A stretch of DNA of 64,000 nucleotides, from NCBI RefSeq assembly GCF_030013205.1, contig NZ_CP122648.1, one strand, 5' to 3'. Positions within the stretch are counted from its first letter, which is position 1. Every line of letters starts with the position of its first letter. This stretch comes from Escherichia coli (lineage in GTDB: Bacteria; Pseudomonadota; Gammaproteobacteria; Enterobacterales; Enterobacteriaceae). Position numbers: made by a program. Below, one piece after another: positions 57,038 to 60,000 of the stretch.

Positions 57038-60000
57038 TTAATTCGTAAAACGTGCTACCGATCACATTAAGAAATCAGCGCTTATTTTTTCGCTCCCGGG
57101 CATTACGCAATGAGCAGCGAACTCAGGCATACATCAAGAATAGAGAGGGATTGCAGTTTGCAGCAATCCCTCTTTGCAGACCTTTAATCCGTTGACTATA
57201 GGCGCTAACATAGCGCCTCATTTTTTTGCGGGTGATGATATGCGTGTGTTACTGGCACCGATGGAGGGAGTGCTTGACTCTCTGGTGCGTGAATTGCTGA
57301 CCGAAGTTAACGACTACGATCTGTGCATCACCGAGTTTGTCCGCGTGGTGGATCAACTGCTGCCAATAAAAGTCTTTCATCGCATTTGCCCTGAGCTACA
57401 AAATGCCAGCCGGACACCTTCCGGTACGCTGGTGCGCGTGCAGTTGTTAGGTCAGTTCCCACAATGGCTGGCAAAGAACGCCGCCCGTGCGGTGGAGTTA
57501 GGTTCCTGGGGCGTGGATCTCAATTGCGGCTGCCCGTCGAAAACGGTTAACGGTAGCGGCGGTGGGGCGACGTTACTCAAAGAGCCTGAACTCATCTATC
57601 AGGGTGCAAAAGCGATGCGTGAAGCTGTACCGGCGCATTTGCCCGTCAGCGTGAAAGTGCGTCTGGGATGGGACAGCGGTGAGAAGAAATTTGAAATCGC
57701 CGATGCGGTTCAACAGGCTGGTGCTACAGAGCTGGTGGTGCATGGGCGGACGAAAGAGCAGGGTTACCGCGCGGAGCATATTGACTGGCAGGCGATTGGC
57801 GAGATTCGCCAGCGGCTGAATATTCCGGTGATTGCCAACGGTGAAATCTGGGACTGGCAGAGTGCGCAACAATGCATGACGATCAGCGGATGCGACGCAG
57901 TGATGATTGGTCGCGGGGCGCTCAATATTCCCAACCTGAGCCGGGTGGTAAAATATAACGAACCGCGAATGCCGTGGCCGGAGGTAGTTGCTTTGCTGCA
58001 AAAATATACCCGTCTGGAAAAGCAGGGCGATACCGGGTTATATCACGTTGCGCGGATTAAACAGTGGTTGAGTTATTTGCGTAAAGAATACGATGAAGCA
58101 ACGGAATTATTTCAGCATGTTCGGGTGTTGAATAATTCCCCTGATATTGCAAGGACTATTCAGGCAATTGATATCGAGAAACTCTAAAAAACCATAGTGA
58201 TGTTTTTTGACAATGTGTTAGCTCTTTATCAATAGGCCGCACGGTTGTTTGGTGGCGTCAAAATCGCCGAGGCGTTCCCCGAAGGCCGGGGCAGCCCACA
58301 TGGATGTGGGCTGAGGGCGCGTTTTACAGGGATGTTACCTCGCGCCCGACCCGGTAGCCGTAAGGGATAAGCCGAGGGCACCGCGCAGCGGCGATTTTGT
58401 TCGCCAGAGCCCGGGGGTGCAGGGAGCGGCGGCGATTGGTCGCCCCCTGCGCGCTCCTTGCGCCAGTGATTATATGAAGCAATGCACATGACAGGAGCGC
58501 AACAGGATGAGAGACTGAAATATTCTCGTTATTTTCGGATCTGATGACATTAATTAATTTTAAAATATCATCTTAAATACGCCAGTCACCACCAGTAGCC
58601 CAATCAGGAAAATAATCAATACAGCCCAGAGTATAATTTTCATTGGCGTTCCTTTATTTGTGAGTGCTGAATAAGTATAGGAAAAAACGAAGCCCTTTGC
58701 CGTTATCCATAAACGATTAAGATAAATCGGAAGATATCATTCACTTGGTGTATATTTTTCTGGATATGTCGTTTTATTGCTACTGATGTATTGCCACGCG
58801 AAACTAAAAAATATATCGCAACACACGGTAATCTCCGCGCACCTTTTCTTACCTGATTATTCCCCCATGAATCGTGATTCTTTTTATCCAGCCATCGCCT
58901 GTTTTCCGCTGTTACTGATGCTGGCCGGGTGTGCGCCTATGCATGAAACCCGCCAGGCGTTAAGCCAGCAAACGCCCGCTGCACAAGTTGACACCGTATT
59001 ACCCACGGCGCTGAAAAATGGTTGGCCAGACAGCCAATGGTGGCTGGAGTATCACGATAATCAACTCACTTCCTTAATTAATAATGCACTACAGAGCGCA
59101 CCGGATATGCAGGTGGCTGAACAGCGCATTCAGCTAGCTGAAGCCCAGGCGAAGGCAGTTGCCACTCAGGATGGTCCGCAGCTCGACTTTTCTGCGGATA
59201 TGGAGCGGCAAAAAATGTCGGCAGAAGGGTTAATGGGGCCGTTTGCTTTGAACGATCCGGCCGCAGGTACGACCGGTCCGTGGTACACCAACGGTACTTT
59301 TGGCTTAACGGCGGGCTGGCATCTCGATATCTGGGGAAAGAATCGGGCGGAGGTTACTGCTCGCCTGGGTACGGTTAAAGCACGGGCGGCGGAACGCGAG
59401 CAAACCCGCCAATTGCTGGCTGGCAGCGTAGCCCGTCTGTACTGGGAGTGGCAAACCCAGGCGGCGTTAAACACGGTCTTGCAGCAAATCGAAAAAGAGC
59501 AGAACACCATTATCGCCACCGATCGCCAGCTATATCAGAACGGGATTACTTCTTCAGTTGAAGGTGTGGAAACCGATATTAATGCCAGCAAAACCCGGCA
59601 GCAGCTCAACGATGTCGCGGGGAAAATGAAAATTATTGAGGCACGGTTAAGTGCGCTCACCAACCACCAGACAAAGTCATTGAAGCTTAAAGCGGTCGCG
59701 TTGCCGAAAGTGGCAAGCCAGCTTCCTGATGAACTGGGGTACTCCTTACTGGCCCGGCGGGCAGATTTGCAGGCGGCGCACTGGTACGTTGAGTCATCGC
59801 TAAGCACCATTGATGCGGCAAAAGCGGCATTTTATCCTGACATCAACCTGATGGCCTTTCTGCAACAGGATGCGTTGCACTTAAGCGATCTGTTCCGTCA
59901 TTCCGCGCAGCAAATGGGCGTTACGGCAGGCCTGACGCTACCCATTTTCGATAGTGGTCGTCTTAACGCCAACCTCGATATCGCAAAAGCCGAAAGCAAC

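What the first reader, a model, noticed from the sequence alone, without database searches (positions are those of the whole stretch)
58200..58500. GC-rich, hairpin-dense element between convergent dusC and yohP
The 373-bp spacer between dusC and yohP contains ~210 bp of sequence far more GC-rich than its surroundings, built from nested inverted repeats including one perfect 7-bp hairpin and a pair of 16-nt arms ~120 nt apart. It does not match the REP consensus seen elsewhere in this window and has no convincing coding frame. It could be a structured non-coding RNA, a 3' UTR element or a small non-autonomous repeat; I cannot tell which, or whether K-12 carries it.
Basis: seen in the sequence. 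Interest (0 to 1): 0.45.

Follow-up and report, generated by a model that had tools for sequence, protein, structure and literature searches.

The report
Known TRIP1c / RRS-dusC repeat element
The GC-rich, hairpin-packed stretch between dusC and yohP is a known E. coli repeat (TRIP1c, also called the dusC "replication risk sequence") that has been shown in K-12 to fold up and leave single-stranded gaps when the chromosome is copied.

Summary
The interpretation resolves to a known element. Window 58231-58503 is the TRIP1c repeat (Rudd 1999; Li et al. 2024) and matches K-12 at 269 of 273 bases. Its core, 58249-58468, is the roughly 222-bp Replication Risk Sequence "RRS-dusC" (Pham et al. 2023, 2024). 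In K-12 that sequence blocks lagging-strand synthesis and leaves post-replication gaps. K-12 carries the element at this site. 5425 of 5426 complete E. coli genomes hold at least one family member (median 3 places).

I added several points. Across 36 copies from Escherichia, Klebsiella, Kluyvera and Citrobacter, an 11-helix fold is kept by compensatory changes (34 of 66 pairs). Two apical loops keep an invariant GGA. That explains a sub-threshold Rfam hit to TwoAYGGAY; the element is not a member of that family. The published G-quadruplex motif lies in one arm of a covarying hairpin.

The dusC spacer exists as two alleles with opposite element orientation (3308 and 2000 genomes). Salmonella and Klebsiella have no element at dusC. 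A K. pneumoniae chromosome holds 13 places, and each copy read there follows a REP-like unit.

Novelty: already known. An RNA role or a selfish-repeat origin remains possible and untested.

The parts
58231..58503 (+). TRIP1c repeat unit (273 bp), oriented with its G-rich strand on the window + strand
   Evidence: 269/273 identical to K-12 NC_000913.3 2229122-2229394, the TRIP1c coordinates of Li et al. 2024. Mismatches are at 58265, 58280, 58425 and 58440. It starts 43 bp after the dusC stop, as published.
58249..58468 (+). Core shared almost perfectly with K-12 TRIP1a (lysO-aqpZ); corresponds to the roughly 222-bp Replication Risk Sequence RRS-dusC
   Evidence: A stringent local alignment of K-12 TRIP1c against TRIP1a gives a 220-bp core, which maps to these window positions. 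RRS is described in PMC10287960 and PMC10592627.
58413..58432 (+). Published G-quadruplex-forming motif, here GGGGGTGCAGGGAGCGGCGG (19/20; A at 58425 replaces G)
   Evidence: The motif GGGGGTGCAGGGGGCGGCGG is quoted in PMC10592627. A G4Hunter-style score is 1.8 here and 2.3 in K-12.
58251..58411 (+). 5' multi-branch domain: a closing stem (58251-58266 with 58392-58411) around nested helices and hairpins
   Evidence: RNAalifold consensus on 36 copies. Helices 1-9 are 95-99% paired and 24 of their 46 pairs show compensatory changes.
58292..58313 (+). Hairpin with apical loop UGGA (58301-58304); motif CAUGGAUG
   Evidence: Perfect inverted repeat. The stem covaries (CCCAC/GUGGG, CCCGC/GCGGG, CGCGC/GCGCG). 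The loop CATGGATG is present in 31 of 34 copies and CAGGGATG in the other 3.
58315..58347 (+). Hairpin with apical loop AGGGAU (58328-58333)
   Evidence: Helices 7-8. The inner pair changes A-U to G-C in 17 copies. GGA is invariant in the loop while its neighbours vary.
58419..58450 (+). Helix 10: a GC-rich hairpin of 12 pairs whose 5' arm carries most of the G4 motif; this copy has one A.C mismatch (58425) and one G.T wobble (58440)
   Evidence: 6 of 12 pairs show compensatory changes, and the Citrobacter copies use a different stem sequence. The two-substitution variant occurs in only 13 of 5380 records, and all 8 of those listed are swine isolates.
58451..58500 (+). Helix 11: GCGCUCCU (58451-58458) pairs with AGGAGCGC (58493-58500) around a variable interior
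   Evidence: Perfect 8-nt inverted repeat. 4 of 8 pairs covary. The interior is the most variable part of the element, with entropy 1.0.
58274..58291 (+). First copy of an 18-nt internal direct repeat (the second is at 58399-58416, spacing 125 nt)
   Evidence: family D2. The partial TRIP1b copy in K-12 lacks exactly the 125 bp between these repeats.
57240..58187 (+). dusC (flanking gene; reads toward the element)
58560..58643 (-). yohP (flanking small membrane protein gene, convergent with dusC)

Best explanation
Window 58231-58503 is the dusC-proximal copy of the enterobacterial TRIP1 repeat (TRIP1c). Its core is the Replication Risk Sequence RRS-dusC. It is a non-coding, GC-rich DNA element. 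Either strand, once single-stranded, folds into a very stable multi-hairpin structure, and the G-rich strand can also form a G-quadruplex. Here, as in K-12, the G-rich strand is the lagging-strand template. When the replisome unwinds the element, the folded template blocks Okazaki-fragment synthesis. The polymerase re-primes downstream and leaves a transient single-stranded gap of up to about 2 kb, which SSB and RecA occupy. The authors propose that this gap relieves topological stress near the Ter macrodomain boundary. Shown here: identity, location, orientation, fold and its evolutionary conservation. Shown by others in K-12: polymerase block, gaps, conditional essentiality and supercoiling effects. 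Inferred: that this strain's slightly variant copy behaves the same way, and that gap formation is the selected function.
For: Identity and position. 269/273 bases match K-12 TRIP1c, 43 bp after the dusC stop. The same spacer is present at 80% coverage or more in 3308 complete genomes, including K-12 derivatives.

Literature. TRIP1a, TRIP1b and TRIP1c were defined by Rudd 1999 and surveyed by Li et al. 2024. RRS-lysO and RRS-dusC cause RecA/SSB-bound lagging-strand gaps, block Pol I, II and IV at the G4, work at ectopic sites, cannot both be deleted without an insH7-8 amplification, and change genome-wide supercoiling. Single-molecule work shows gaps at nearly every encounter with the G4 strand and about two-thirds of encounters with the C strand.

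Orientation. The window + strand has GC skew of zero or above in 13 of 15 8-kb windows. The window is syntenic with K-12, where the G-rich strand lies on the bottom strand of the left replichore.

Fold. ssDNA folding gives -74.7 and -72.1 kcal/mol, with z = -5.8 and -6.5. This near-symmetry fits the reported activity of both strands. The fold is maintained by selection: 97.9% of cells are paired against 91.3% in shuffles, and 34 pairs have double changes against 11.4 in shuffles (0 of 500 shuffles reach the observed value). Slid controls pair at 37-43%.
Against: Several results question whether gap formation by a G4 on the lagging-strand template is what selection maintains.

1. The dusC spacer has a second allele with the element inverted, in 2000 of 5426 genomes. 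By megablast, two of those genomes hold no other copy (H66, H67).
2. Both orientations also occur at the lysO and alx loci across Escherichia.
3. Salmonella, K. pneumoniae and K. aerogenes have no element downstream of dusC.
4. A K. pneumoniae chromosome has 13 places. Seven copies on one ATCC 13883 scaffold alternate in strand in a way that a single replichore switch cannot explain.
5. The G-runs sit in one arm of a hairpin that covaries. The two Citrobacter copies keep the hairpin but have weak G4 scores of 1.2-1.3.
6. This window's copy carries a substitution in the second G-run.

No experiment was done on this strain.
Confidence: 0.85

Rival explanations
1. The family is mainly a selfish or neutral dispersed intergenic repeat, of the REP/BIME or MITE kind, that spreads into or is copied between intergenic spacers. 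Replication gaps would then be a by-product of its very stable fold, possibly co-opted in E. coli.
For: Copy number varies: 1-8 places per E. coli genome and 13 in one K. pneumoniae chromosome. Copies sit in many unrelated intergenic sites. In all four K. pneumoniae loci read, a REP-like unit precedes the copy, and one locus has tandem copies. A head-to-head pair occurs in Citrobacter. Both orientations occur at the same three Escherichia loci, with unrelated flanking spacer sequence between alleles. Salmonella has an empty dusC-yohP site. In K-12 the alx-sstT site holds a boxC-like repeat instead.
Against: I found no terminal inverted repeats, target-site duplications or associated transposase. 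There are no matches in phages, and all 34 matching plasmid records are typed non-mobilizable; those inspected carry housekeeping genes and look like chromosomal fragments. Published genetics show that at least one copy is conditionally essential in K-12. Strong purifying and compensatory evolution of the fold, and invariant loops, argue for constraint on the sequence itself, although a mobilisation mechanism could also impose this.
Confidence: 0.25
2. The element acts as a structured RNA, in addition to or instead of its DNA role. It would be transcribed by read-through from the upstream gene as a 3' UTR, and its two GGA-loop hairpins would bind CsrA or another RNA-binding protein, or it would stabilise or terminate the convergent dusC and yohP transcripts.
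For: Two apical loops, CAUGGAUG and CA(N)GGA(Y)G, keep an invariant GGA in all four genera while their stems covary. They resemble the CsrA SELEX consensus RUACARGGAUGU (from my own knowledge). Rfam gives a full-length sub-threshold hit to TwoAYGGAY, a member of clan CL00106 for which CsrA binding has been proposed: 28.5 bits, E = 0.045. A core-only hit of 25.6 bits appears in Citrobacter. No terminator-like site separates dusC from the element. G.U pairs outnumber A.C pairs 53 to 11 on the G-rich strand. In the annotated loci the element usually follows a co-oriented gene.
Against: The score is below the TwoAYGGAY gathering threshold of 43 bits, and Klebsiella copies give no hit. No promoter-like site lies upstream of the element. 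The G.U excess comes mostly from two alignment columns. At lysO in K-12 the G-rich strand is antisense to both neighbouring genes. Opposite orientations at one locus would put different strands into the transcript. I found no paper linking CsrA to these loci. Watson-Crick covariation fits ssDNA hairpins equally well.
Confidence: 0.1
3. It encodes a small protein: the 86-aa ORF at 58229-58489 (-) or the 41-aa ORF at 58245-58370 (+).
For: The ORFs exist. A K. aerogenes record annotates an 'uncharacterised protein' over its copy.
Against: Homologous copies differ by 1-nt indels, which break any frame. Substitutions are paired across stems rather than showing codon periodicity. No RefSeq annotation lies under any of the E. 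coli matches listed.
Confidence: 0.01

Closest known systems
TRIP1 repeats (TRIP1a-e; Rudd 1999, Res Microbiol; Li et al. 2024, Genes 15:236, PMC10888264)
   Same: It has the same sequence (269/273 to K-12 TRIP1c), the same locus 43 bp after the dusC/yohI stop, the same length (273 bp), the same GC richness and the same predicted 'double-Y' fold. It belongs to a multi-copy family with copies at aqpZ-lysO, putP-efeU, alx-sstT and copA-ybaP.
   Different: There are four substitutions relative to K-12. Two of them (A58425, T58440) lie in the GC-rich hairpin that carries the G4 motif, and this pair is rare (13 of 5380 records).
Replication Risk Sequences RRS-dusC / RRS-lysO (Pham et al. 2023 NAR, PMC10287960; Pham et al. 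2024 NAR, PMC11194060; Kusi-Appauh et al. 2026 preprint, PMC13308219)
   Same: The 220-bp core at 58249-58468 is the repeat shared by the dusC and lysO sites. [quoted passage not shown]
   Different: The G4 motif matches at 19 of 20 positions. The distance to dif and the formation of gaps cannot be checked from a 64-kb window.
REP / BIME elements
   Same: Both are GC-rich, palindromic, intergenic and multi-copy, and often lie between convergent genes. In Klebsiella, each TRIP1-like copy I read is directly preceded by a REP-like unit.
   Different: There is no match to the REP consensus inside the element. TRIP1c is about eight times longer than a REP unit, has a multi-branch fold, and has far fewer copies in E. 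coli.
TwoAYGGAY RNA (Rfam RF01731, clan CL00106)
   Same: Both have an outer stem enclosing two hairpins whose apical loops carry A-N-GGA-Y. The model aligns over its full length (1-168).
   Different: The score is 28.5 bits against a gathering threshold of 43. The second loop is AGGGAU, not AYGGAY. Klebsiella copies give no hit. There is no evidence that this element is an RNA.
Neisseria gonorrhoeae pilE G4
   Same: The RRS authors cite it as the only other bacterial sequence known to trigger a programmed gap through a folded G-rich strand.
   Different: The sequence is unrelated, it is a single short G4 without a multi-hairpin scaffold, and it serves pilin antigenic variation.

Membership tests
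TRIP1 / RRS | High nucleotide identity to the K-12 TRIP1c unit (NC_000913.3 2229122-2229394) | tested here: met
   269/273 identical in one ungapped block, window 58231-58503. 98.6% over 283 bp by blastn.
TRIP1 / RRS | Location downstream of dusC (yohI), before yohP/mdtQ (yohG) | tested here: met
   dusC ends at 58187, the element starts at 58231 (43 bp later, as published), and yohP is at 58560-58643.
TRIP1 / RRS | Member of a multi-copy family in the same genome | tested here: met
   The 100%-identical source genome (CFSAN018748) has 5 places. The median is 3 per genome across 5425 genomes. There is only one copy inside this window.
TRIP1 / RRS | G4-forming motif GGGGGTGCAGGGGGCGGCGG on the G-rich strand | tested here: inconclusive
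   Present at 58413-58432 with one substitution (GGGAG in place of GGGGG). The G4Hunter-style score is 1.8 against 2.3 in K-12. Whether it folds as a G4 cannot be computed here.
TRIP1 / RRS | G-rich strand is the lagging-strand template | tested here: met
   This is indirect. The window + strand has GC skew of zero or above in 13 of 15 windows. The window is syntenic with the K-12 left replichore, where the G-rich strand is the bottom strand.
TRIP1 / RRS | About 650 kb from dif, paired with an inverted copy at lysO | not testable with these tools
   The window is 64 kb and contains neither dif nor lysO.
TRIP1 / RRS | Triggers RecA/SSB-bound post-replication gaps and blocks polymerases | not testable with these tools
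   This is experimental and is published for K-12 only.
TwoAYGGAY RNA (RF01731) | Covariance-model score at or above the gathering threshold (43 bits) | tested here: not met
   28.5 bits in the window, 25.6 bits in Citrobacter, and no hit in Klebsiella copies.
TwoAYGGAY RNA (RF01731) | Two terminal loops with AYGGAY | tested here: not met
   The first loop context is AUGGAU. The second is AGGGAU (ACGGAC, AAGGAC or AUGGAC in some other copies).
REP / BIME | Match to the REP consensus | tested here: not met
   The full consensus gives no match with up to 3 mismatches. The half-site matches only at 4238 and 61158, outside the spacer.
Protein-coding gene | Reading frame conserved among homologues | tested here: not met
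   1-nt indels separate the Escherichia and Klebsiella copies, and substitutions are paired across stems.

The most novel reading that the evidence does not exclude
Selection in this family may maintain the 11-helix fold and its two invariant GGA apical loops rather than the G-quadruplex. That would point to a protein that recognises the hairpins, either CsrA-like on a read-through RNA or a hairpin-binding factor on ssDNA. The family would then be a REP-associated dispersed repeat whose orientation is not tied to replication. The replication gaps seen in K-12 would be a consequence or a co-option of the fold, and hairpins rather than the G4 could be the main polymerase block.
Probability: 0.15. 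Interest if true: 0.55.

Novelty: already known. Interest (0 to 1): 0.2.

Why it matters
For a genome scan, this is a correctly spotted but already named feature and should be filed as TRIP1c / RRS-dusC. The element itself matters: it is one of only two bacterial sequences reported to programme single-stranded gaps during replication, and it is proposed to mark or relieve the Ter macrodomain boundary.

The comparative results here bear on that model. The multi-hairpin fold is under compensatory selection. The G4 motif is embedded in one of the covarying hairpins. Natural E. coli populations carry the dusC copy in both orientations. Salmonella and Klebsiella lack it at dusC, while Klebsiella holds many copies next to REP-like units. 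These points suggest experiments that separate hairpin from G4 and host function from repeat spread.

Tried and rejected
**Rfam.** At permissive thresholds only sub-threshold hits appeared (TwoAYGGAY, AgvB and noise). At gathering thresholds over 50-64 kb the only hit was an unrelated Peptidase-S11 motif.

**Promoters and terminators.** The scan found no terminator and only one promoter-like site, at 58544-58571. That site is outside the element and within chance expectation.

**Phages and plasmids.** There were no phage matches. Plasmid matches were all typed non-mobilizable, and those inspected carry housekeeping genes, so they look like chromosomal fragments or whole chromosomes filed as plasmids.

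**Coding hypothesis.** Rejected because of frame-breaking indels.

**Mobility signatures.** I looked for a clean insertion signature with terminal repeats or target duplication, using occupied and empty sites (K-12 against GPEC996 at alx-sstT; Salmonella against E. coli at dusC-yohP). In both comparisons the whole spacer differs, so no boundaries or duplications could be defined.

**Gene context and local skew.** My stop-to-stop ORF finder gave spurious ORFs in GC-rich Klebsiella DNA, and GC skew on 2-10 kb flanks was too noisy to use. I relied on record annotations and tblastn instead.

**Literature.** Searches for CsrA together with dusC, or with aqpZ and CLIP-seq, found nothing relevant.

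**Sampling bias.** The genome-collection scan used a pattern anchored on helix 10 and the G4 motif. Conservation of that segment in alignment A7 is therefore biased upward and was not used as evidence. Only the BLAST-derived Citrobacter and K. aerogenes copies are unbiased for it.
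Full report
**Observation.** dusC (57240-58187, +) and yohP (58560-58643, -) converge on a 372-bp spacer. GC content rises to 0.63-0.71 over about 58250-58480, against 0.33-0.37 on either side. One is a perfect 10-nt pair at 58292-58301/58304-58313. The other is a pair of 16-nt arms at 58259-58274/58384-58399, with 109 nt between them. The stretch folds far better than shuffled sequence. As RNA, z = -4.0 on the + strand and -3.6 on the - strand. As ssDNA, the energies are -74.7 and -72.1 kcal/mol with z = -5.8 and -6.5. REP-like sequences occur in the window only at 4238 and 61158, not in the spacer.

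**What it is.** A megablast of the spacer against 5426 complete E. coli genomes matched 5425 of them, at a median of 3 places per genome and up to 8. So this is a dispersed repeat, not a single-locus feature. K-12 derivatives and MG1655 carry it at the same site. Other copies lie between lysO and aqpZ and between alx and sstT. None of the listed matches has an annotated feature under it.

A full-text search for Rudd's 1999 paper on intergenic repeats led to two bodies of work. The first is the TRIP1 repeat family (Li et al. 2024, PMC10888264). It places TRIP1c at NC_000913.3 2229122-2229394, 43 bp downstream of yohI/dusC. The second is the Replication Risk Sequences of Pham, Cox, Goodman and colleagues (PMC10287960, PMC10592627/PMC11194060, PMC13308219).

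Aligning the published K-12 TRIP1c unit to the window gives one ungapped block, 58231-58503, with 269 of 273 identities. The element starts 43 bp after the dusC stop, as published. The segment shared almost perfectly with K-12 TRIP1a, which is the roughly 222-bp RRS, maps to 58249-58468. The published G4 motif maps to 58413-58432 with one substitution.

**How it works (published, K-12).** The RRS near lysO and dusC lie about 650 kb on either side of dif. Each anchors a peak of RecA and SSB on lagging-strand ssDNA that extends 1.4-2.5 kb from the repeat. The G-rich strand blocks Pol I, II and IV at the G4 site and lowers Pol III synthesis about twofold. Ectopic copies create new gap sites. Both copies can be deleted only together with a 200-kb insH7-8 amplification or with substitute copies. 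Double deletion or inversion changes genome-wide supercoiling. Single-molecule work shows gaps at nearly every encounter when the G4 strand is the lagging template, and at about two-thirds of encounters for the complementary strand.

In this window the G-rich strand is the + strand. That strand has GC skew of zero or above in 13 of 15 8-kb windows, and by synteny it corresponds to the K-12 bottom strand in the left replichore. The G-rich strand is therefore the lagging-strand template here too. The near-equal ssDNA stability of both strands fits the reported residual activity of the C strand.

**What I added: the fold is under selection.** I collected copies in three ways. One was an exact-pattern scan of one genome per species, which returned 29 loci in Escherichia spp., Klebsiella, Kluyvera and a few contaminated assemblies. 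The second was BLAST against records filed as plasmids that are really chromosomal, from K. pneumoniae, K. aerogenes and C. freundii. The third was an nhmmer search of all fetched loci.

An alignment of 36 distinct copies (A7) gives an RNAalifold consensus of 66 pairs in 11 helices. Of these, 34 pairs show compensatory double changes. On the named structure, 97.9% of cells pair, against 91.3% in column shuffles. Pairs with double changes number 34, against 11.4 ± 2.1 in shuffles. All five measures beat 500 of 500 shuffles. Sliding the partners by 1-3 columns drops pairing to 37-43%.

Two apical loops are nearly invariant while their stems change. CATGGATG is present in 31 of 34 copies, with CAGGGATG in the rest. 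In the second loop GGA is invariant while its neighbours vary. This two-GGA-hairpin layout inside an outer stem explains the full-length but sub-threshold Rfam hit to TwoAYGGAY: 28.5 bits against a gathering score of 43, E = 0.045. CsrA binding has been proposed for TwoAYGGAY RNAs. Citrobacter gives 25.6 bits and Klebsiella gives nothing, so the element is not a member of that family.

G.U pairs outnumber A.C pairs 53 to 11 on the G-rich strand, but most come from two columns, so the strand inference is weak. Watson-Crick covariation cannot distinguish RNA from ssDNA.

**What I added: G4 versus hairpin.** The G4 motif occupies the run just before helix 10 and that helix's 5' arm (58419-58430 pairs with 58439-58450). 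Six of the helix's 12 pairs covary. One G-C pair becomes A-U in all Klebsiella copies. GGCGGC/GCCGCC becomes GGAGGA/TCCTCC in one Escherichia lineage. The two Citrobacter copies keep a hairpin of different sequence, with G4Hunter-style scores of only 1.2-1.3 against 2.3 in K-12.

There is a caveat. Most copies were retrieved with a pattern anchored on this segment, so its sequence conservation in A7 is biased. Only the compensatory changes and the BLAST-derived copies count as evidence. This window's copy has A58425, which interrupts the second G-run and makes an A.C mismatch, and T58440, which makes a G.T wobble. The pair of changes is found exactly in only 13 of 5380 records, and all 8 of those listed are swine isolates.

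**What I added: distribution and orientation.** The dusC-yohP spacer has two alleles. The window/K-12 form is in 3308 genomes. A second form is in 2000 genomes, with the element inverted relative to both flanking genes and with unrelated flanking spacer sequence. By megablast, two of the inverted-allele genomes listed hold no other copy. Li et al. already reported both directions for TRIP1a and TRIP1c.

Using tblastn of the flanking proteins, I find both orientations at dusC, at lysO-aqpZ and at alx-sstT across Escherichia, including E. whittamii and unnamed Escherichia species. Downstream of dusC, Salmonella has only a 57-bp spacer with a hairpin, and K. pneumoniae and K. aerogenes have unrelated sequence. 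nhmmer finds no element in any of the three.

One K. pneumoniae chromosome has 13 places. Seven exact-pattern copies on one ATCC 13883 scaffold run -, +, +, -, +, -, - along 0.83-4.24 Mb, which a single ori/ter switch cannot explain. In the four K. pneumoniae loci I read, a REP-like unit directly precedes each copy, and one locus has two tandem copies. These facts do not contradict the K-12 experiments. They do sit uneasily with the statement that position is highly conserved across enterobacteria, and they keep a dispersed-repeat origin open.

**Rivals.** A selfish or neutral repeat origin gets about 0.25, and an RNA role about 0.1. Both could be additional to the DNA role rather than alternatives. 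A coding role is rejected, because 1-nt indels between copies break every frame. I found no promoter-like site upstream of the element and no terminator between dusC and the element, so any RNA would arise by read-through from dusC.

**Verdict.** The finding is real and was well described, but it is an already known and named element, TRIP1c / RRS-dusC. Interest as a new finding is low. The comparative observations above are modest additions, and they suggest concrete tests of the current G4-centred model.

Noticed in passing
window 58425 and 58440: This strain's TRIP1c copy has two substitutions in the GC-rich hairpin that carries the G4 motif (G to A in the second G-run, and C to T making a G.T wobble). 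The exact 75-nt segment occurs in only 13 of 5380 E. coli records, and all 8 listed are swine isolates.
   Followed up: partly
L004 2430-2816 (E. coli CU42ET-1 dusC-yohP spacer); also L023, L030, L041: A second allele of the dusC-yohP spacer carries the element in the opposite orientation, with unrelated flanking spacer sequence. It is present in 2000 of 5426 complete genomes and in E. whittamii and other Escherichia species. Two listed genomes with this allele have no other copy by megablast.
   Followed up: partly
L010-L013 (K. pneumoniae), e.g. L013 3559-3842 and 3996-4279: In the four K. pneumoniae loci read, the element is directly preceded by a REP-like unit (GCCGGGTGGCGGCTnnCGCCTTACCCGGCCTAC), and one locus has tandem copies. 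One chromosome has 13 places.
   Followed up: partly
L043 2635-2921 (-) and 2968-3258 (+) (Citrobacter freundii, yeiP-torD spacer): Two diverged copies lie head-to-head. They keep the hairpins and the GGA loops, but their helix-10 sequences differ and their G4 scores are weak.
   Followed up: partly
L045 3440-3496 (Salmonella enterica dusC-yohP spacer): The site is empty: a 57-bp spacer holds only a GC-rich hairpin (GTGCCGGGCAG...CTGCCCGGCGC). K. pneumoniae (L046) and K. aerogenes (L047) also lack the element downstream of dusC.
   Followed up: yes
L008 3547-3944 (K-12 alx-sstT spacer) vs L003 2425-3039: Where some strains hold TRIP1d, K-12 holds a boxC-like repeat (CTCCCTCTCCCTTCCAGGGAGAGGGTCGGGGTGAGGG...). 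The whole middle of the spacer differs between the two strains.
   Followed up: no
window 58274-58291 and 58399-58416; L009 1347-1502: An 18-nt internal direct repeat has 125-nt spacing. The partial TRIP1b copy in K-12 lacks exactly the segment between the two repeat copies, which suggests it arose by deletion between them.
   Followed up: partly
window 58493-58513: AGGAGCGCAAC followed by ATG looks like a ribosome-binding site plus start codon. The open frame is 3 codons here and 9 in K-12 TRIP1a, and one copy has no ATG. AGGAGCGC is the 3' arm of helix 11, so pairing probably explains the resemblance.
   Followed up: partly
window 58477-58537 (-): There is a sub-threshold Rfam hit to AgvB (anti-GcvB sRNA): 22.9 bits against a gathering score of 56, E = 0.088. 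It overlaps the 3' edge of the element and the flank, and is probably chance.
   Followed up: no
window 62670-62750 (+): A Peptidase-S11 RNA motif (RF03039) scores above the gathering threshold: 72.8 bits, E = 4e-12.
   Followed up: no
window 58867-60303 (+): mdtQ is an intact ORF in this strain, whereas it is a frameshifted pseudogene in K-12.
   Followed up: no
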